A DNA stretch of 20,000 nucleotides from an uncultured virus (IMG/VR IMGVR_UViG_3300016469_000321) (taxonomy: Duplodnaviria > Heunggongvirae > Uroviricota > Caudoviricetes), in the IMG/VR virus record IMGVR_UViG_3300016469_000321; one strand, 5' to 3'. The position numbers were made by a program, and so were the translations under genes. Position 1 is the stretch's first letter. Each line of letters opens with the position of its first letter. The notes under the pieces were generated by a model, which saw only the letters and a list, made by a program, of their open reading frames with translations, made no database searches and had not been told where the DNA came from. Below, one piece after another: positions 110 through 11,792 of this stretch.

Positions 110-2937
110 GCCTCCTTGAGGTTTCTTCCGACGCTGGCCTCGGCGGTGAGCGGCACCTCCCATCCGGGGATGCGGACGGTCATGCACTCCTCGACCTCGC
201 GGCGGTACGCCTCCAACTCAGGCGGCAGCGCCTCGCCCTTCACTGGCTTCCAGTTGGCCAGCCCCGGCGGCGCCTCGATCTCGATGGCGATGGAGTCGTG
301 GCACTGGTGGATGAGGCCCGTCCGGCTCCACAGATCCCACGGGAAGCGACGGATCAGCGCCTGCTCGGCGAGGCGCATGACGCTCGTCTCGGCGGCGAGG
401 ATCGGGAAGTTGACGACCTCGTTCTTCTTGCCGTCGGAGAGGCTGCCGGAGCGCCGTCCCAGCACCGGTTCCTCCATGTAGCCCTGATGCCGGTAGAGGG
501 AGAGCATCGCCTCCCAGGCCGACAGCCATTCCGGCTCCGTCTTGAGCCACGTCTCGTGGAAGTGGCGCACCTCCTTTGAGGTCATGTTGAGGTACGGCAT
601 CTCGCCGTTGTCGGCCTCGGTCGAGGTCAAGACCTGCCAGACCGTCATCGGGTCGGCCCAGTAGATCGAGGCGTAGCGGAACGTCTTCATGACGTCGCGC
701 ATCGCCTTCGCCATGCCACCGCCCGGCTTCTTGTAGAGGCTGAACCCGTCCGGTCCCCACCCCGTGGCGGCCTTGAACTTGTCGCCGAACACCTGATACG
801 CGAGCGTGTTGTGCGGATCCTTCCCCTCGCTGAAGCACTCCAGCAGGAGCGGGATCTTCCAGTAGTTGGCCGTGATGCGGAGATGCGCCTGGTCGAGGTC
901 CGCCCCCACGAGCAGATGCCCGCGCTCCGCAGCGAACAGGGTCTTCAACTTGCCCTGTCCCTTGCGGCTGCCGATGTTCTGTAGGTTCGGGCCGCTCGAC
1001 GACAGCCGCCCCGGTGCCGTGACGTGCGCGTTCCACGTCGAGCGCACGCGCCCGTCCGGGTGCCAGACGATGCCCTTCTTGGGATCGTGCGCCGTGAGGT
1101 TCAGCGGCAGGAGCACCGTGCCGAGGATCTTGTTCTTCTCCCGGCGGTACAGGCGCAGTTCGCGGATGAACGCCTCCTGCTCGGGCGTGAGGCGCCCGCC
1201 GGCGAGGTGGCCACGGAGCACCTTGTCCCCGGTGCCGGGCATCCCCGACGCCGTGTAGAAGTCGCGCGCCTCCATGCTTGGCGGGATGCCGAGCTTCCAC
1301 GTCTCGTACAAGAGGTCGCGGATCTGGTCGGCGCTGCCGGGCTTCACGCCGGCCACCTCGTCGCCGTCGTCGTTCGCGCCCGCGCTCTTCAGGTCGATGT
1401 TGCCCAGGCCCACGGCGTAGGCCAGCTCGGAGAGGTTCTTCTCGCGCTTCGCCACGCTGGCGCGTGTCTCCATCTCCATCTTGAAGCGCGCTTCCTGGTC
1501 GATGTACACGCCGATCTTGTGGAGGTTGACGCACATGTCCTGTGTCGCGTGGTCGAGTTCGTGGAGATCCCAGCGCCGGTTCTCCCAGCCCTTCGGGCGC
1601 AGCGCCTCCGGCAGGTCGCGGAACGCCCCGGCCTCCTCAGCCGCATCGAAGAGCGGCACCACGATGCGCGCGTTTACGCTGCTGTCGGTGCAGTTGTAGG
1701 CGAGGCGGTCCCAGTCGTCGACCTGCCCGTGCGCGAGGCTCTCGCCCTTCTCCGTCGTCTCCCAGCGGTCGACGTCGGTGAGGACGGATCCGACGACCTT
1801 CAGCCCCTTCGGCAGTTCCGGCGCCCGGAAGCGCGCCGCGAACAGCGTGTCGATGACCGGCGCCGGCGTCACGCCGAGCCACTGCTCGACGACCTGGCGG
1901 TCATAGTAGCCGGCGTTGTGGCCCACCTTTGTCTTAGAGGTGTCGCATAGGAACCGGCGTAGAATGTCGATGATCCGGTCCTCGTCGGCCTCGCTATAGA
2001 ACCTCGTAAAGCCGTCGCCGCTCAGCAGGTTGAGGCCGACCACGGCAGCGCGCCGTGCCTCCTCCTGACCGGGCCGCAGCGCGCGGCCCTCGGCGTTGAG
2101 GTCCGGGTGCGCGATGGCGATGGAGCGCACCTTGCACGTCATGGACTCAATGCCGTCCGTCTCAAGGTCGTAGGCCCAGAACGGCATGTCCTGCGAGAGG
2201 AACGCCTCCAGCTCGTCAGGCGTCGGGTTGAAGGCGCGTTCCGGCTCCGTCCAGCGCAGGTTGCCGCTGAACCAGCGCAGCGCCTTGGAGAGGTCGGCGT
2301 GGAGCGTGGCGCGCCAGCCCGGAGACTTCTGCACGAAGCCAGGGTGGAACGTCGGGAAGACCTTCCGCACCGCGCCCTCCGGCACGACGTTGGCGAGCGG
2401 CGTCTCCATGAGCGCGCCCCAGTTCTCGTCGACCCACACCGGGCCGCCGCGCAGCGCGAAGATGGACTGCGTCTTGGCGGTCAGCGAGTTGGCGGCGACG
2501 CGACCCAGCGCCACGATGTTCTCGTACTCTTGTGCCTCCGAAAGTAGACGCGGACGGCAGCACGCGATAGGGTCCGGGAGGGCCGGGAGTCCTGTAGCAA
2601 GACGACGACGGTTCTCCTTGTCGAGCGCCTTGGTCATCTTCTCCCATGCGTTCTGCTGCGCGCCGGCAGAGCAGGCGACGACGTGCGTGAGGTCGATGTC
2701 GTTGCGCTTGCGCCCGATGGACAGGAGCGCGAGGTTCCACTCGCCACCGCTGCGCCCCGACAGCGGGCGCTCGTTGGATGCGTCATCGACGCCCGGCATC
2801 TCGGCCACAGCGAGGACGGTCGCGCCCTTGTGGACTTCGGGAGGAACGGGACGCCACGGGCCATCCCGATGGCTGCCGTTGGGGCCGAGCGGACACTCGT
2901 CGCAGCGAGCGCCGCAGGCGCGTGGATCGTATGTCAT
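106..2937 (-). CDS. polA: Phage family-A DNA polymerase with N-terminal family-4 uracil-DNA-glycosylase-like domain and 3'-5' exonuclease (SPO1-type architecture), about 943 aa
   Basis: UDG-like: CxxCPL, AEMPG, RPLSGRSG, IVALGRVA, PTFHPG. Exonuclease: YDLETDG, GHNAGYYD, YNCTD. Polymerase: GRLSSSGPNLQNI, motif A GADLDQAHLR, motif B RDVMKTFRYASIY, motif C CHDSI. Start set at MTYDP (2937) because the longer ORF overlaps the Dps-like gene. Confidence 0.93.
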   Translation of the reverse strand: MTYDPRACGARCDECPLGPNGSHRDGPWRPVPPEVHKGATVLAVAEMPGVDDASNERPLSGRSGGEWNLALLSIGRKRNDIDLTHVVACSAGAQQNAWEKMTKALDKENRRRLATGLPALPDPIACCRPRLLSEAQEYENIVALGRVAANSLTAKTQSIFALRGGPVWVDENWGALMETPLANVVPEGAVRKVFPTFHPGFVQKSPGWRATLHADLSKALRWFSGNLRWTEPERAFNPTPDELEAFLSQDMPFWAYDLETDGIESMTCKVRSIAIAHPDLNAEGRALRPGQEEARRAAVVGLNLLSGDGFTRFYSEADEDRIIDILRRFLCDTSKTKVGHNAGYYDRQVVEQWLGVTPAPVIDTLFAARFRAPELPKGLKVVGSVLTDVDRWETTEKGESLAHGQVDDWDRLAYNCTDSSVNARIVVPLFDAAEEAGAFRDLPEALRPKGWENRRWDLHELDHATQDMCVNLHKIGVYIDQEARFKMEMETRASVAKREKNLSELAYAVGLGNIDLKSAGANDDGDEVAGVKPGSADQIRDLLYETWKLGIPPSMEARDFYTASGMPGTGDKVLRGHLAGGRLTPEQEAFIRELRLYRREKNKILGTVLLPLNLTAHDPKKGIVWHPDGRVRSTWNAHVTAPGRLSSSGPNLQNIGSRKGQGKLKTLFAAERGHLLVGADLDQAHLRITANYWKIPLLLECFSEGKDPHNTLAYQVFGDKFKAATGWGPDGFSLYKKPGGGMAKAMRDVMKTFRYASIYWADPMTVWQVLTSTEADNGEMPYLNMTSKEVRHFHETWLKTEPEWLSAWEAMLSLYRHQGYMEEPVLGRRSGSLSDGKKNEVVNFPILAAETSVMRLAEQALIRRFPWDLWSRTGLIHQCHDSIAIEIEAPPGLANWKPVKGEALPPELEAYRREVEECMTVRIPGWEVPLTAEASVGRNLKEA

Positions 2938-2949
2938 GCACCCCGGTAT

Positions 2950-2965
2950 CCTTACCGGAGTGTCA
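2950..2965 (-). promoter_or_regulatory. 16-bp element TGACRCTCCGGTAAGG, second copy at 93-108 (putative operator/promoter element)
   Basis: ccttaccggagtgtca (2950-2965) vs ccttaccggagcgtca (93-108), 15/16 identical, each upstream of a gene start. Confidence 0.6.
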
Positions 2966-2972
2966 TGGCAAC

Positions 2973-3419
2973 CTACATCTTCGCTGGGCCGGCGGCGTAC
3001 CGCTGCTTCAGCAGGTACACGTCCGCCAGGTGCTTCGTGCCGATGCCGGACACGAGGTTCGACAGGGCGCCCGGATACGGGCACTCGCCACCGTTCACGA
3101 TGGCGTCGTTCGCGGCCTCGGACAGTTCCATCAGCATCTCGGCGATGACCAGCGGCGTGCCGCCCTGCTGCGCGATCATGCCAATCTTCTCGCCGGCCGC
3201 GGCCCACGCCTTGATCGGGTCGAGCTTGTCGCTGCCGTAGTGTCCCGCGATCACCTCGGCCAGGTCGTCGATGTCACCCTCGACGCCCTCGTAGAGGCGC
3301 TTGAACATGAGATGGTCGCCGTAGAACGGCTGTCCCTTCGCCTGCCAGTGCAGCGTGTGGTACAGGTGGTGCGCGGCGCGCAGGCCAGCCCACAGGTCGA
3401 GCAGGACGGGAAGAAGCAT
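2973..3419 (-). CDS. Dps/ferritin-like protein
   Basis: HTLHWQAKGQPFYGDHLMFKRLYEGVEGDIDDLAE matches the Dps ferroxidase signature HW-x2-KG-x2-F-x3-H-x2-F-x2-LY...D-x-LAE; 148 aa. Confidence 0.8.
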   Translation of the reverse strand: MLLPVLLDLWAGLRAAHHLYHTLHWQAKGQPFYGDHLMFKRLYEGVEGDIDDLAEVIAGHYGSDKLDPIKAWAAAGEKIGMIAQQGGTPLVIAEMLMELSEAANDAIVNGGECPYPGALSNLVSGIGTKHLADVYLLKQRYAAGPAKM

Positions 3420-3428
3420 CTCGGCCCC

Positions 3429-3824
3429 CTACTTCTTGGCCGAGGGCAGCGTTCCCTCGATGTACTCTTCCTCGAACACCATCGTCTTGGCGGGTGCCTC
3501 AAGGTCGGCGAGACGCTTCTCCATGTCCACGGAACGCTGGATGTCGTCCATGATCTTCTCATGGACCTGCGTGCCGGGCAGGATCTTCTGACCGCCTGCG
3601 CTCTTGGGCGACTTGGCGATGGTGATGGTGCCGTCGGTGTCGACCTTGTACTCGTAGCCGCCGCTGCCCTTGTACATGCCAGCGCCGAACCCGTAGGATC
3701 CAGGCTCGCTGACCTTGACGAACGACTTGGGACCGGGCTGGCCTTCCGTCGGACGGTGGACGCGCTCGCGCTCCATCTGTCCTTCGCGGCGCATCTTGTC
3801 CATCATCTCGCGGTAGTCGGCCAT
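3429..3824 (-). CDS. Hypothetical protein, about 131 aa (MADYREM...)
   Basis: GC3-rich codon usage, GGGGG RBS, 9 bp from the Dps-like gene. Confidence 0.7.
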   Translation of the reverse strand: MADYREMMDKMRREGQMERERVHRPTEGQPGPKSFVKVSEPGSYGFGAGMYKGSGGYEYKVDTDGTITIAKSPKSAGGQKILPGTQVHEKIMDDIQRSVDMEKRLADLEAPAKTMVFEEEYIEGTLPSAKK

Positions 3825-9032: not shown

Positions 9033-9509
9033 ATGTCATTTCACGCGAACATGACTGACTTGTCCGGGCGGCGCGTAGGCCGACTGATTATTGACGGTCC
9101 CGTGGGTCGGTCAGCAGACGGGCATGTCTTATGGCGCTGCCTCTGCGAGTGCGGCAAGACGAAGAACATCGCCTCAAACAGTCTCACGCGATCCGCGCCT
9201 GTTCAGTCATGCGGCTGCATGAACGCGACCACCGCACAGCGCAGGCGAAACCCGAACGGCGCGTGGAACGAAGGCAAGAGTTACGTCATTTCAAGCGGCG
9301 AGCACTGCTACAAGACCCGTCACGGGTGGGCGAAAGCTGCGATCCGACACTACGGAAACCGCTGCGAACGATGCGGCTGGGACAAGGCACGTTGCGATGT
9401 TCACCATCGCCATCCAAAGTCGCTGGGAGGGGCGCACACGCTGAAAAACGCCATCGTTCTGTGTCCAAACTGTCATCGAGTAGAGCACGAGGCCCGTCAT
9501 GTCGCTTAA
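9033..9509 (+). CDS. HNH endonuclease with N-terminal Cys-rich phage homing-endonuclease-type domain
   Basis: DLSGRRVGRL...WRCLCECG...SCGC, then CERCG...DVHH..PKSLGG....NAIVLCPNCHRVEH; AAGGAG RBS. Confidence 0.85.
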   Translation: MSFHANMTDLSGRRVGRLIIDGPVGRSADGHVLWRCLCECGKTKNIASNSLTRSAPVQSCGCMNATTAQRRRNPNGAWNEGKSYVISSGEHCYKTRHGWAKAAIRHYGNRCERCGWDKARCDVHHRHPKSLGGAHTLKNAIVLCPNCHRVEHEARHVA

Positions 9510-11115
9510 GTTCATCTCCATCTGTTCGGGCATCGAAGCCGCCTCAATGGCGTGGGAGCCTCTGGGATGGACGCCGCTGGCGTTCTCTGAGATTGAGCCG
9601 TTTCCCTGCGCCGTGTTGAAGCATCACTACCCGCATGTCCCGAACTTTGGAGACATGACGAAGTTCGATGAGTGGCCGGAGGACGTACTCGCTGAGTGCG
9701 ACGTGCTGGTGGGGGGCTGTCCATGTCAGGCGTTCTCAGTAGCCGGACTGCGCCAGTCGCTGGCCGACGCGCGCGGCAACCTTACGCTCGTCTTCGTCAA
9801 GTTGATCAACCACATCGACGCCATTCGGAGCAAGCATGGAAGACCACCCATCATCATCGTCTACGAGAATGTTCCAGGCATCCTCAGCACCGGCGACAAC
9901 GCCTTCGGCAACTTCCTTGGGGCGCTGTCCGGAGAAGACGGGCCACTCGAACCTCCAGGGGGCAAGTGGACAAACGCTGGTCTGGTGTGCGGACCCACGC
10001 GCGACCTCGCGTGGCGCATCCTTGACGCTCAATATTTCGGAGTGGCCCAACGACGCCGTCGTGTGTTCCTTGTCGGACATTCTCGTGCCGGCAGCCTCCG
10101 TCCCGTCAAGGTTCTTCTTGTCGAGCAAGGCGTGCAGCGGCATTCTCCGCCGAGCCGAGAAGCGGGGCAAAGAGCTGCCGCCGTTGCTGCTCGCGGCGCT
10201 GAGGGCGGTGGCGGGGGACTCGGAGCCGGACACGACGGAGGACGAGGAGGAGTAGCCTACGGGTTCAACTTTGAACAGTTCTCCGGAACAGAGGGTCCGA
10301 TCAGTCCGTGCCTCACGAAGACAGAGCACAAGGGCAAGACGCTCGTCTATGACGGGCCGCATGTCGTCGCCCCTCCACGCGCCACGTTCTGGAACGGCTC
10401 AGACCTCGCCGAGACGCTCACAGCAACTAGCGACGATCAGCGCATGCCCGACAAGGGACGCATGCAGATGGTCGTGCAGCCTATGGATAGCGCCCACAAC
10501 GGAGGCGGGCTGAACGGACAGGACGCCTATACGGGGCGCGTTCTGCCGGTCGTTCAATGCGTGACCGGCGAGCGAACGCATGCGCTCAAGGCTGAAGGAG
10601 CAGATGGTTCCGAGGACGGCACAGGCCGCGGGACGCCTATCGTCACATCCATAGGCTTCTACCCGACGGAAGGACGAGACTTCCCAGCGTTCAATGAGCT
10701 ATCGCCTACCGTGAAGGTCGGTTCTGGCGGCACATCAGGGAACCCCCCTGGTGTGATGTCAGCGATGGCCGTCCGCCGCCTCACGCCCGTCGAGCATGCA
10801 CCGGGTGAAACGACGTACATGATCACCGACTATCGGACCAACACGTTCTCTGAAACCAATCTCAGCGGCCCGCTGACAACATCTCGCACAATGTTTCGGT
10901 CAGCCCCGCTCGCGGCTGAGATGGCCGTCCGCCGCCTCACGCCCATCGAGTGCGAGCGCCTCCAAGGCTTCCCCGACGACTACACGCGCATCCCTTGGAA
11001 GGGCAAGCCCGCGAGCGAGTGTCCTGACGGTCCGCGCTACAAGGCGCTCGGCAACTCAATGGCGGTTCCCTGCATGTACTGGATCGGATGGCAGATCCGA
11101 AAGGCGATGACATGA
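9499..11115 (+). CDS. DNA (cytosine-5) methyltransferase with long variable region
   Basis: Motif I SICSGIEA, II FSEIE, III GDM, IV GGCPCQAFSVAG, VI YENVPG, VIII QRRRRVF, IX RRLTPIECERLQGFPD, X RYKALGNSMAVP. Confidence 0.95.
   Translation: MSLKFISICSGIEAASMAWEPLGWTPLAFSEIEPFPCAVLKHHYPHVPNFGDMTKFDEWPEDVLAECDVLVGGCPCQAFSVAGLRQSLADARGNLTLVFVKLINHIDAIRSKHGRPPIIIVYENVPGILSTGDNAFGNFLGALSGEDGPLEPPGGKWTNAGLVCGPTRDLAWRILDAQYFGVAQRRRRVFLVGHSRAGSLRPVKVLLVEQGVQRHSPPSREAGQRAAAVAARGAEGGGGGLGAGHDGGRGGVAYGFNFEQFSGTEGPISPCLTKTEHKGKTLVYDGPHVVAPPRATFWNGSDLAETLTATSDDQRMPDKGRMQMVVQPMDSAHNGGGLNGQDAYTGRVLPVVQCVTGERTHALKAEGADGSEDGTGRGTPIVTSIGFYPTEGRDFPAFNELSPTVKVGSGGTSGNPPGVMSAMAVRRLTPVEHAPGETTYMITDYRTNTFSETNLSGPLTTSRTMFRSAPLAAEMAVRRLTPIECERLQGFPDDYTRIPWKGKPASECPDGPRYKALGNSMAVPCMYWIGWQIRKAMT
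9836..10255 (+). CDS. Nested +1-frame protein, putative methyltransferase beta-type subunit (M.EcoHK31I beta-like)
   Basis: Own GGAG RBS 5 nt before ATG; TLNISEWPNDAVVCSLSDIL...VPSRFFLSSKACSGILRRAEKRGKELP resembles, from memory, alternative-frame MTase partner polypeptides. Confidence 0.72.
   Translation: MEDHPSSSSTRMFQASSAPATTPSATSLGRCPEKTGHSNLQGASGQTLVWCADPRATSRGASLTLNISEWPNDAVVCSLSDILVPAASVPSRFFLSSKACSGILRRAEKRGKELPPLLLAALRAVAGDSEPDTTEDEEE
10764..10950 (+). repeat. 31-bp direct repeat (10764-10794 and 10920-10950, one mismatch) encoding MAVRRLTP(V/I)E
   Basis: GATGGCCGTCCGCCGCCTCACGCCC(G/A)TCGAG occurs twice, 156 bp apart, in frame. Confidence 0.92.
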
Positions 11116-11792
11116 TCCCCGAAGAGACACTCGACCAGGCGATGCGCCTCCGATCCACGGGCCTCCTGTGGCGCGAGGTGGCTGAGCAGCTCGGCCTCGT
11201 GACCAACACGCTGCACAAGCATCTCGTCCGTACTCGACGCATCGTGCCACCCCCAAGCAAGCGCAAGTTGGCAACGTGGCCGATCTGTGTTATTCGGGAC
11301 GCGCACCGGCGCTGCGTGCAAGGAGAACGCATCGAGGACGTCGCGGCAACGCTCGGCATCTCGGTGGTCGCCCTGCGCTCGCAGTTCGTGAAGAAGGGGT
11401 ATCCGCCTCTCCGGCCTCCGCCTGAACGATGGACCGCCAAGGAGGTCCGCCAGGCATACGAGCGGTACGTGAACGGCGAGGACCGCCACGCCATCGCCGC
11501 GAGCTTCGGCACGTCGTGGGTGCTGCTCTACGGTGCGATGCGCCGCCGCGGCTACTACACCCGCGAGATCGGCAACGCGCGCCGCCGGCACGACAACCTC
11601 GGCCGGCAGGTCTGGCGCATGCGGATGGAGGGCATCTCCATCAAGGAGATCGCCGAGCGGCTCGGTGCGTGGGAGCACACGAGCAACCCGGCGCAGCGTG
11701 TCTCGCAGTGCCTCTACACGTACTGCAAGCGCAACCGCATCGTGAAGCCACCCCGCAAGGTCACTTCGCCGGCAAAGCCGCCAGTGCCTTGA
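11112..11792 (+). CDS. DNA-binding protein with four tandem HTH-like repeats
   Basis: GLLWREVAEQLG, GERIEDVAATLG, GEDRHAIAASFG, GISIKEIAERLG; ATGA overlap with MTase stop. Confidence 0.75.
   Translation: MIPEETLDQAMRLRSTGLLWREVAEQLGLVTNTLHKHLVRTRRIVPPPSKRKLATWPICVIRDAHRRCVQGERIEDVAATLGISVVALRSQFVKKGYPPLRPPPERWTAKEVRQAYERYVNGEDRHAIAASFGTSWVLLYGAMRRRGYYTREIGNARRRHDNLGRQVWRMRMEGISIKEIAERLGAWEHTSNPAQRVSQCLYTYCKRNRIVKPPRKVTSPAKPPVP

What the first reader, a model, noticed from the sequence alone, without database searches (positions are those of the whole stretch)
9827..10255. Gene within a gene: second polypeptide in the +1 frame of the C5 methyltransferase
Seen: a 139-codon same-strand ORF lies wholly inside the MTase gene, has its own GGAG-N5-ATG and a protein-like C-terminal half. 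The main frame keeps motifs VI-VIII across the overlap, then decays into a Gly/Ala linker (AAAVAARGAEGGGGGLGAG) near the end of the nested ORF, as expected if selection acts on the other frame. Known: M.EcoHK31I needs alpha and beta polypeptides, with beta encoded in an alternative frame inside alpha and carrying motif IX. From memory, this ORF resembles the N-terminal part of such beta chains (E-x-P...CSLSxxL...FL....LxRA..R...LP). Inference: motifs IX and X stay in the main chain here, so this would be a differently split two-chain phage MTase that gene callers would miss.
Basis: partly seen in the sequence, partly recalled or inferred. Interest (0 to 1): 0.82.

Follow-up and report, generated by a model that had tools for sequence, protein, structure and literature searches.

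The report
Hidden partner gene inside methyltransferase gene
Inside this phage's DNA cytosine methyltransferase gene a second, smaller protein is encoded one base out of step; the same hidden gene is kept in hundreds of related phage and prophage genes and is related to the small subunit of the one known two-protein enzyme of this design, M.EcoHK31I.

Summary
In detail: a 139-codon ORF (9836..10255, GGAG-N5-ATG) lies in the +1 frame of the 538-codon C5 methyltransferase gene (9499..11115). In this window alone the open frame is no more than chance (P about 0.2). The relatives decide it. In 230 of 232 related loci the +1 frame is open for at least 100 codons, and 226 start with ATG. In a sample chosen without regard to the overlap, the +1 frame of the ORF's C-terminal half is better conserved than the main frame, and most differences there are silent in +1. 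The ORF is homologous to the N-terminal 100 residues of the beta chain at an E. coli locus matching the published M.EcoHK31I primers (hhalign 98.5%). In this lineage the family's usual start codon is lost and a start 9 codons downstream is used. Expression and binding to the enzyme are inferred, not shown. The scan has reported this kind of nested gene before on other DNA. Four literature searches found only the M.EcoHK31I papers.

The parts
9499..11115 (+). Main ORF: C5 cytosine DNA methyltransferase, 538 aa, with motifs I-VIII, a variable region, and motifs IX and X in one frame
   Evidence: ORF. (PF00145, E 1.3e-40, 140 bits against a cut-off of 22). (invariant P75 C76 Q77, E123 V125, Q184 R186 R188, R478 L480 E484, G518 N519 S520). 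(AF2: residues 1-209 and 470-538 confident, 210-469 below pLDDT 50).
9803..9805 (+). TGA in the +1 frame that closes the nested frame upstream
9808..9813 (+). Main codons N104-H105 (AAC CAC). This is the position where relatives read GAT/AAT GCA, which gives the conserved nested ATG. Here the +1 codon is ACC, so the usual start is lost.
   Evidence: At this column 61 of the 68 Asp/Asn codons (69 non-redundant relatives, one has GAG) end in T, against 36% elsewhere in the same genes. The window and its sisters L004 and L005 are among the exceptions.
9827..9830 (+). GGAG, a Shine-Dalgarno-like site 5 nt before the nested ATG
9836..10255 (+). Nested +1 ORF, 139 codons plus TAG; a second in-frame ATG lies at codon 12 (9869)
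   Evidence: Homologues.
10031..10225 (+). Conserved core of the nested protein (residues 66-130: ISEWPND...SLS..L...FFLS.KAC.GILRRAEKRGK.LP..L.AL). Residues 90-130 (10103-10225) are predicted with confidence, with two helices at 97-110 and 116-126.
   Evidence: invariant L79 L83 L95 R106 P115 L118 L122. (pLDDT 91-97 for residues 90-130, 45-64 elsewhere). (+1-frame purifying selection).
10174..10230 (+). Main-frame Gly/Ala stretch (aa 226-244), which overlaps the conserved core of the nested ORF
   Evidence: (main-frame identity 0.23-0.30 across main aa 211-240). (pLDDT below 50).
10927..10983 (+). Motif IX (VRRLTPIECERLQGFPDDY) in the main frame, not in the nested ORF
11050..11070 (+). Motif X (GNSMAVP) in the main frame

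Best explanation
The 139-codon ORF is this phage's copy of a conserved gene nested in the +1 frame of a large family of phage and prophage C5 methyltransferase genes. It is homologous to the N-terminal two-thirds of the beta polypeptide of M.EcoHK31I.

It is most likely translated by internal initiation on the methyltransferase mRNA. In this window that start is the ATG at 9836 behind GGAG, which replaces the family's usual start 9 codons upstream. The product would be a protein of about 15 kDa. Its N-terminal half is a loosely constrained, probably disordered leader laid over motifs VI-VIII. Its C-terminal 60-70 residues form a conserved two-helix module.

By analogy with M.EcoHK31I beta, whose N-terminal part is needed for association with alpha, the product most likely docks on the methyltransferase as a small subunit. 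Here the main chain keeps motifs IX and X.

Shown here: the ORF, its homology, its conservation, and selection on the +1 frame. Inferred: translation, binding, and any effect on methylation.
For: Conservation. The +1 translation has relatives in at least 592 viral contigs, 135 phage records and 157 confirmed stretches in bacterial genomes (the 80 kept span several phyla). In 145 of 151 viral or phage loci and 81 of 82 genome or metagenome loci it lies in +1 relative to motifs I-VIII. Motifs IX-X lie in the main frame in 81, 63 and 67 loci of the three sets. The +1 frame is open for at least 100 codons in 230 of 232 loci, and 226 have an ATG-initiated ORF of at least 100 aa.

Openness. In the set chosen by main-frame aa 1-110 (41 non-redundant loci), the median open length is 164 codons. 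The median chance of that under synonymous shuffling is 0.008, and 31 of 41 loci fall below 0.05. Outside the interval the +1 stop density predicts 6.5 stops.

Selection. In the same set, synonymous-site identity is 0.74-0.83 at main aa 196-240 against 0.31-0.50 in the motif I-V and IX-X regions. Differences by main codon position are 0.52/0.35/0.33 there against 0.29/0.22/0.59 upstream. Differences silent in +1 but not in the main frame are 0.43 there against 0.14-0.18 outside.

Start signals. 61 of 68 Asp/Asn codons at the start column end in T, against 36% background (binomial 3e-20). A Shine-Dalgarno-like tetramer precedes the start in 34 of 40 and 39 of 68 loci, against 21-24% background.

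This lineage. Between the window and L004, the C-terminal half has 13 differences silent only in +1 and 6 silent only in the main frame. Upstream the counts are 23 and 40 (Fisher P 0.018). Against L005 the counts are 12:8 and 21:42 (P 0.04). L004 has GGAG-N6-GTG opening a 119-codon version.

Link to M.EcoHK31I. An E. coli locus matches a published M.EcoHK31I beta primer 31/31. It has a 309-aa alpha gene, a +1 beta starting at alpha codon 104, and a NotI-family nuclease next door. Beta aligns to the ORF at BLASTP E 9e-8 and hhalign 98.5%. PMC2836561 (passages read) states that beta is needed for activity and that N-terminal deletions of 42 or more residues reduce association with alpha. It also reports that internal Met codons can start a shortened, partly active beta.
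Against: In the window alone the open frame is expected by chance about one time in five.

The family's usual ATG is missing here and in both closest relatives. L005 also has a +1 stop in the N-terminal part.

The N-terminal half of the ORF shows no +1 constraint beyond background in the unbiased set: third-position differences are 0.56 against 0.59-0.61.

The nested protein has no Pfam or PDB sequence match. Only residues 90-130 fold with confidence.

The main chain has every catalytic motif, so a need for a second chain is not obvious.

The two lineage tests use L004 and L005, which are near-identical, so they are not independent. Pairwise counts ignore phylogeny.
Confidence: 0.62

Rival explanations
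1. In this window the nested ORF is a decaying relic. The family gene is real, but this lineage lost its start codon and the frame is open only because the DNA is G+C-rich. No product is made.
For: The usual ATG is lost in the window, L004 and L005. L005 has a +1 stop. The chance of the frame being open is 0.18-0.21. Synonymous sites in the N-terminal half differ almost as much as upstream between the window and L004 (0.42 against 0.50).
Against: The C-terminal half still evolves as a +1 coding region between the window and L004/L005: 13:6 and 12:8 against 23:40 and 21:42. Third main-codon positions are the least variable there (0.18-0.22). The +1 stop and the acidic tail are kept in all three. 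Each has a replacement start behind GGAG. For M.EcoHK31I, shortened beta chains from internal Met codons keep partial activity (PMC2836561).
Confidence: 0.15
2. The nested gene is real and expressed, but its product is not a methyltransferase subunit. It acts on its own, for example as a small DNA-binding or regulatory protein or a host-directed factor, and merely shares the transcript.
For: The main chain carries all motifs. The only confidently folded part is a basic two-helix hairpin. No test of binding could be run.
Against: The gene was found only inside C5 methyltransferase genes, and always at the same place: 226 of 233 loci in +1 relative to motifs I-VIII. Its homologue in M.EcoHK31I is a subunit required for methylation (PMC2836561 passages; PMC3404938 passage).
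Confidence: 0.18
3. The +1 module is reached by ribosomal frameshifting from the main frame, giving a truncated methyltransferase fused to the module, rather than by its own start.
For: Database proteins exist that read motifs I-VI and then switch into the +1 text (P0029, P0042).
Against: A start codon is under strong selection at a fixed site with Shine-Dalgarno-like sites ahead of it. The +1 frame is kept open from that start in 226 of 232 loci. The fused forms I inspected are frameshift derivatives or broken genes. I made no systematic search for slippery sites.
Confidence: 0.05

Closest known systems
M.EcoHK31I (E. coli, YGGCCR), an alpha/beta C5 methyltransferase. Source: Lee, Kam and Shaw 1995 as described in PMC2836561 (passages and supplement read) and PMC3404938 (passage read); the 1995 paper itself is not held.
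   Same: A second polypeptide is encoded in the +1 frame inside the methyltransferase gene, over motifs VI-VIII and the stretch after them. The window's ORF is homologous to beta residues 9-109. In most relatives the nested ATG sits at the same main-frame position as the beta ATG, codon 104.
   Different: M.EcoHK31I beta (176 aa at the E. coli locus) runs on to carry motif IX, and alpha lacks it. Here the nested ORF stops before the variable region and the main chain keeps motifs IX and X. The window's start is displaced 9 codons downstream. Whether both chains are needed here is unknown.
M.AquI (CYCGRG), an alpha/beta C5 methyltransferase, as described in PMC3404938 (passage read)
   Same: A C5 methyltransferase made of two polypeptides.
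   Different: According to that passage, M.AquI is cut within the variable region: one chain has motifs I-VIII and the other has IX-X. The passage does not describe a nested alternative-frame gene. No sequence comparison was made here.
phrog_16143, a PHROGs v4 family of 139 profile positions labelled 'DNA methyltransferase'
   Same: 22 of 48 nested proteins match it (best E 1e-9). So do the E. coli beta chain (E 7e-6, residues 20-82) and the nested ORF of mycobacteriophage Dove (E 1.5e-7). The family therefore corresponds to the nested module.
   Different: The window's ORF matches only weakly (E 8.9e-4, residues 57-99). The nested ORFs of Vibrio phage 1.046.O and Bcep22 do not match at E 0.01. 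The label says nothing about a nested, out-of-frame gene.

Membership tests
C5 cytosine DNA methyltransferase (PF00145), main ORF | Pfam match above the gathering score | tested here: met
   E 1.3e-40, 140.3 bits against a cut-off of 22, two stretches.
C5 cytosine DNA methyltransferase (PF00145), main ORF | Motifs IV (PCQ), VI (ENV), VIII (QxRxR), IX and X (GNS) in one chain. The motif names come from established knowledge of the family. | tested here: met
   P75 C76 Q77, E123 V125, Q184 R186 R188, R478-Y495, G518 N519 S520, all in the 9499..11115 frame.
M.EcoHK31I-type alpha/beta C5 methyltransferase | A second polypeptide encoded in another reading frame inside the alpha gene | tested here: met
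   (a +1 ORF inside the main ORF). Expression was not tested.
M.EcoHK31I-type alpha/beta C5 methyltransferase | The nested product is homologous to the beta polypeptide | tested here: met
   BLASTP E 9e-8 (33% over 69 aa) and hhalign 98.5%, E 1.6e-15, over 101 columns. The comparison was against the +1 ORF of E. coli locus L284, which matches the published beta primers.
M.EcoHK31I-type alpha/beta C5 methyltransferase | Beta carries motif IX and alpha lacks it | tested here: not met
   motif IX is in the main frame (10927-10983), and the nested ORF ends at 10255.
M.EcoHK31I-type alpha/beta C5 methyltransferase | Both polypeptides are required for methylation | not testable with these tools
   This needs an activity assay.
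Conserved +1 nested gene of phage C5 methyltransferase genes (the family defined here; phrog_16143-like) | Lies in the +1 frame relative to motifs I-VIII, spanning motifs VI-VIII and the stretch after motif VIII | tested here: met
   the window shares the layout of 81 of 83, 63 of 68 and 67 of 82 loci.
Conserved +1 nested gene of phage C5 methyltransferase genes (the family defined here; phrog_16143-like) | Conserved C-terminal module (SLS..L, LS..AC.GILRRA..RGK.LP..L..AL) | tested here: met
   all invariant columns are present in the window's ORF (L79 L83 L95 R106 P115 L118 L122).
Conserved +1 nested gene of phage C5 methyltransferase genes (the family defined here; phrog_16143-like) | Purifying selection on the +1 frame of the C-terminal half | tested here: met
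   Family level. Window against L004/L005: (P 0.018 and 0.04, not independent).
Conserved +1 nested gene of phage C5 methyltransferase genes (the family defined here; phrog_16143-like) | ATG at the family's usual start site (main codon about 104, or about 50-66 in the second subgroup) | tested here: not met
   the window reads ACC there, and its first ATG is at main codon 113.
Conserved +1 nested gene of phage C5 methyltransferase genes (the family defined here; phrog_16143-like) | Match to phrog_16143 | tested here: inconclusive
   E 8.9e-4 for the window's ORF, and no match at 1e-5. 22 of 48 relatives match.

The most novel reading that the evidence does not exclude
The two-protein requirement shown for M.EcoHK31I may be the rule, not an oddity. 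In that case the large family of phage and prophage C5 methyltransferases that databases list as single genes would in fact be heteromers. A full-length catalytic chain would be inactive, or unregulated, without the 14-18 kDa chain read from its own gene in the +1 frame. The amount of active enzyme would then be set by internal initiation within one mRNA.
Probability: 0.35. Interest if true: 0.85.

Novelty: new variant of a known kind. Interest (0 to 1): 0.68.

Why it matters
Same-strand nested genes of more than 400 bases are rare in bacteria and phages, and annotation pipelines discard them. This one is kept across phages and prophages of many phyla. It ties a 1995 curiosity (M.EcoHK31I) to a widespread gene family. 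If the small chain is a subunit, then phage methyltransferases used to predict host range, escape from restriction and methylomes are being expressed, modelled and annotated without part of the enzyme. The case also offers a clean natural system for studying how two proteins share one stretch of DNA. One half of the overlap is ruled by the old frame (motifs VI-VIII). The other half is ruled by the new frame, where the main chain becomes a linker.

Tried and rejected
1. My first idea was that the C-terminal half of the +1 ORF is the ancestral main frame, displaced by compensating frameshifts or by a sequencing error. I rejected it because none of 233 loci has the module in the same frame as motifs I-VIII, and the main ORF is continuous in most.

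2. I considered database proteins that fuse the module to the variable region and motifs IX-X (94 longer proteins) as evidence of a functional link. I rejected this. In L233 the fusion arises from a frame change at a run of G. L220, L072 and L115 have interrupted main ORFs. So such forms are frameshift derivatives.

3. Sequence searches with the nested protein against Pfam and PDB chains, as a single sequence and as a 48-sequence profile, found nothing relevant. The ESM Atlas returned only unnamed, mostly viral clusters of 97-121 aa.

5. The AF2 model of the main chain shows the linker below pLDDT 50, but the whole variable region is equally low. It therefore does not separate 'linker' from 'poor alignment'.

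6. Searches for closer relatives of this phage found nothing nearer than L004/L005, about 65% identical (variable region against viral contigs; whole protein against metagenome contigs). No whole genome is held, and there is no nucleotide match to known phages beyond 33 bases.

I used the single protein instead.

8. Lee et al. 1995 is not held. Its content is cited only through PMC2836561 and PMC3404938.

9. I recalled that the module resembles the segment after motif VIII in ordinary single-chain methyltransferases. This could not be tested, because no PF00145 match was found for any of 48 nested proteins. It carries no weight in the report.
Full report
THE OBSERVATION

The window holds a 538-codon ORF (9499..11115, + strand) that matches the C5 cytosine methyltransferase family (PF00145, E 1.3e-40). 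Inside it, offset by +1, lies a 139-codon ORF (9836..10255). GGAG sits at 9827-9830 and 5 nt separate it from the ATG. The +1 frame is open from 9806, after a TGA at 9803-9805.

The main frame carries ENV (aa 123-125) and QRRRR (aa 184-188) within the overlap. It then reads a Gly/Ala-rich stretch (aa 226-244). Motifs IX (aa 477-495) and X (aa 518-524) are in the main frame.

Taken alone, the open frame is not remarkable. Shuffling synonymous codons of the main gene leaves the interval open in 18-21% of trials. The opposite strand also holds a 208-codon ORF over the same DNA. The surroundings are those of a phage: DNA polymerase, Sak4-like protein, helicase, HNH endonuclease and a virion structural protein. 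There is no nucleotide match to a known phage beyond 33 bases.

RELATIVES

The translation of the +1 ORF has many relatives:
- 94 database proteins longer than 245 aa
- 135 phage records by tblastn
- at least 592 viral contigs
- 157 confirmed stretches in bacterial genomes. The 80 kept include Pseudomonas, Janthinobacterium, Sphingomonas, Mesorhizobium, Xenorhabdus, Acidobacteriota, Verrucomicrobiota, Planctomycetia, Nitrospirota, Saccharibacteria, Oscillospiraceae and Paludibacter.

I classified reading frames in three sets of loci:
- Set 1: 80 viral loci found with the +1 ORF, plus 3 phage records.
- Set 2: 67 viral loci found with main-frame residues 1-110. These lie outside the overlap, so this set is unbiased with respect to the +1 frame.
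- Set 3: 80 genome loci plus 2 metagenome loci.

The results were consistent:
- The module lies in +1 relative to motifs I-VIII in all 83 loci of set 1, in 65 of 68 of set 2 (window included) and in 81 of 82 of set 3.
- Motifs IX-X lie in the main frame in 81, 63 and 67 loci.
- No locus has the module in the main frame.
- The +1 frame is open for at least 100 codons in 230 of 232 loci.
- An ATG-initiated ORF of at least 100 aa is present in 226 of 232.

The sets are not fully disjoint; L054 and L209 are the same DNA.

In six of six annotated phage records that I opened, the match lies in +1 of the annotated methyltransferase gene and no nested gene is listed. These were Vibrio phage 1.046.O, Bcep22, Providencia PSTRCR_117lys, Mycobacterium phage Dove, Caulobacter BL94 and Akkermansia Chantilly. 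In the Vibrio phage (54% G+C) the +1 frame is open for 147 codons and begins with ATG directly after a stop.

IS THE FRAME KEPT OPEN AND CONSTRAINED?

All figures in this section come from the unbiased set 2 (41 sequences after removing those above 90% identity), unless stated.

Openness:
- The median open length is 164 codons.
- The median probability of this under synonymous shuffling is 0.008.
- 31 of 41 loci are below 0.05.
- The density of +1 stops elsewhere in the same genes predicts 6.5 stops per interval.

Conservation along the gene shows two regimes:
- Over motifs VI-VIII (main aa 113-190) the +1 frame is no more conserved than background. Third-position differences are 0.56, against 0.59 upstream and 0.61 at motifs IX-X.
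- From motif VIII onward (aa 196-240) the picture reverses. Main-frame identity falls to 0.23-0.43 while +1 identity is 0.55-0.66.
- Identity at main-frame synonymous sites rises to 0.74-0.83, against 0.31-0.50 in the motif I-V and IX-X regions.
- The most variable codon position becomes main position 1, which is the wobble position of the +1 frame (0.52/0.35/0.33).

Classifying single differences gives the same answer. Those silent in +1 but not in the main frame make up 0.43 in this stretch, against 0.14-0.18 outside. Those silent only in the main frame make up 0.21, against 0.48. Set 1 gives the same figures.

So the C-terminal half of the nested ORF evolves as a protein-coding region in the +1 frame, and the main chain there is a tolerant linker.

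START SIGNALS

In set 1, 53 of 69 non-redundant loci start the nested ORF at the same column (main codon 104). There the main-frame Asp/Asn-Ala pair reads GAT or AAT followed by G. At that column 61 of 68 Asp/Asn codons end in T, against 36% of such codons elsewhere in the same genes (binomial 3e-20, ignoring relatedness).

A second subgroup, mostly in set 2, starts at main codons 50-66 with a similar N-terminal text (M..QLTF.).

A Shine-Dalgarno-like tetramer lies 5-16 nt upstream in 34 of 40 (set 2) and 39 of 68 (set 1) loci. The same tetramers occur in 21-24% of 12-nt windows in the same genes.

THE PROTEIN

An AlphaFold2 model built on 48 nested proteins is confident only for residues 90-130, with two helices at 97-110 and 116-126 and pLDDT 91-97. 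The first 90 residues score 45-64.

There is no Pfam or PDB sequence match. PHROGs holds a family that corresponds to the module: phrog_16143, labelled 'DNA methyltransferase'. 22 of 48 nested proteins match it, and the window's ORF matches at E 8.9e-4.

The main-chain model is confident for residues 1-209 and 470-538 and low in between. That low region includes the whole variable region, so the model adds little.

THIS WINDOW'S LINEAGE

The window and its two nearest relatives (L004 and L005, about 65% identical in the N-terminal domain) all lack the usual ATG. The window reads ACC there; L004 and L005 read ACG. Each has a replacement start:
- The window has an ATG 9 codons downstream behind GGAG-N5.
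- L004 has GGAG-N6-GTG opening a 119-codon version.
- L005 has a +1 stop, and the +1 frame reopens directly after it at the codon that is L004's GTG start, running on to the shared stop.

The +1 stop and the acidic tail are shared by all three.

Between the window and L004, the C-terminal half has 13 differences silent only in +1 and 6 silent only in the main frame. Upstream the counts are 23 and 40 (Fisher P 0.018). Against L005 the counts are 12:8 and 21:42 (P 0.04). L004 and L005 are near-identical, so this is in effect one comparison. It argues that the conserved half has stayed under +1 selection in this lineage, while the N-terminus has been shortened.

THE LINK TO M.EcoHK31I

PMC2836561 (passages read) makes four points:
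- The beta chain of M.EcoHK31I is encoded entirely in another frame within the alpha gene.
- Alpha holds motifs I-VIII, X and the recognition domain, and beta holds motif IX.
- Deleting 42 or more N-terminal residues of beta abolishes activity in vitro through weaker association.
- After the beta start codon was removed silently, internal Met codons 17 or 26 still gave some activity.

PMC3404938 gives the same division of motifs.

The supplement of PMC2836561 lists the cloning primers. The 31-base gene-specific part of one beta primer matches 80 of 5,426 complete E. coli genomes at 100%, in every case inside a gene annotated only as 'DNA cytosine methyltransferase'.

At one such locus (L284) I found the following:
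- The annotated gene is 309 codons long.
- A NotI-family restriction endonuclease gene lies next to it.
- The +1 frame holds a 176-codon ORF that begins at alpha codon 104. This is the same position as the usual nested start in the phage family.
- By eye, the ends of both ORFs agree with the other primers. One primer implies Val where the locus has Leu.

This beta chain aligns to the window's ORF with BLASTP E 9e-8 (33% over 69 residues). It aligns to the profile of 48 nested proteins with hhalign probability 98.5%, E 1.6e-15, beta residues 9-109 on window residues 39-125. It also matches phrog_16143 (residues 20-82). Beyond residue 115 it matches the motif IX part of PF00145.

M.EcoHK31I beta continues into motif IX, whereas the window's ORF ends before the variable region and the main chain keeps motifs IX and X.

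HOW IT MOST LIKELY WORKS

The proposed mechanism has three steps:
- Ribosomes initiate inside the methyltransferase mRNA at the +1 start and make a small protein. This step is inferred from the start-codon and Shine-Dalgarno statistics, and from the precedent of M.EcoHK31I.
- The protein's N-terminal half is a leader whose sequence is dictated by motifs VI-VIII in the other frame. Its C-terminal 60-70 residues are the selected module. This is shown by the conservation pattern.
- The product probably docks on the methyltransferase. This rests on homology to a subunit whose N-terminal part mediates association. Binding itself is an inference.

What the product adds to a main chain that already has all the motifs is open.

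Rival readings are set out in the Rival explanations section: a relic in this lineage, an independent function, or access to the module by frameshifting.

NOVELTY

The principle has been known since 1995 from one enzyme. What is not in the papers I could search is twofold. The nested gene is a conserved feature of a large phage and prophage methyltransferase family, and the common form leaves motif IX in the main chain.

Earlier agents of this scan reported the same kind of nested gene on other genomes. Those notes are not independent evidence. I did not check their statement that phage P1 carries the nested gene.

Noticed in passing
window 10764-10794 and 10920-10950: A 31-nt direct repeat (30 of 31 identical) spaced 156 nt apart (52 codons, in frame). 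It duplicates the start of motif IX (MAVRRLTPVE / MAVRRLTPIE) in the main ORF. It looks like an in-frame insertion flanked by a duplicated target. L005 has a single copy.
   Followed up: partly
window 9033-9509: An HNH endonuclease gene (PF01844, E 7e-10) ends 11 nt inside the methyltransferase gene. An HTH-rich 234-aa ORF (11088..11792) overlaps the methyltransferase gene's end by 28 nt.
   Followed up: partly
L284 (E. coli chromosome NZ_CP024886.1, 3943260-3948290): 80 of 5,426 complete E. coli genomes carry a locus matching an M.EcoHK31I beta primer. At the locus I inspected, RefSeq lists only the 309-aa alpha gene, next to a NotI-family restriction endonuclease gene. The 176-codon beta ORF is not annotated.
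   Followed up: partly
L281 (Mycobacterium phage Dove) 1365-2483: The methyltransferase is annotated as two genes in one frame (107 and 108). The nested +1 ORF (157 aa from its ATG) is present. Text typical of the variable region (ALTANGVGTCGADDNQ) lies in the third frame at 1997-2206, so the gene is spread over three frames.
   Followed up: no
L233 (Rhizorhapis suberifaciens contig) 2131-3679: Here the nested ORF runs on into the variable region and motifs IX-X (364 aa), while the main ORF stops early. The frame change sits at a run of G in the text AFGGG. This could be a natural split form, a switchable homopolymer or a dead gene.
   Followed up: no
alignment A1; loci: The nested proteins fall into two subgroups that start at different main-frame positions (codon 104, and codons 50-66). 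Both nonetheless begin with a similar N-terminal text (MQLTMF.. / M.EQLTFW.EEP.A.PS). This suggests selection on the N-terminus itself.
   Followed up: partly
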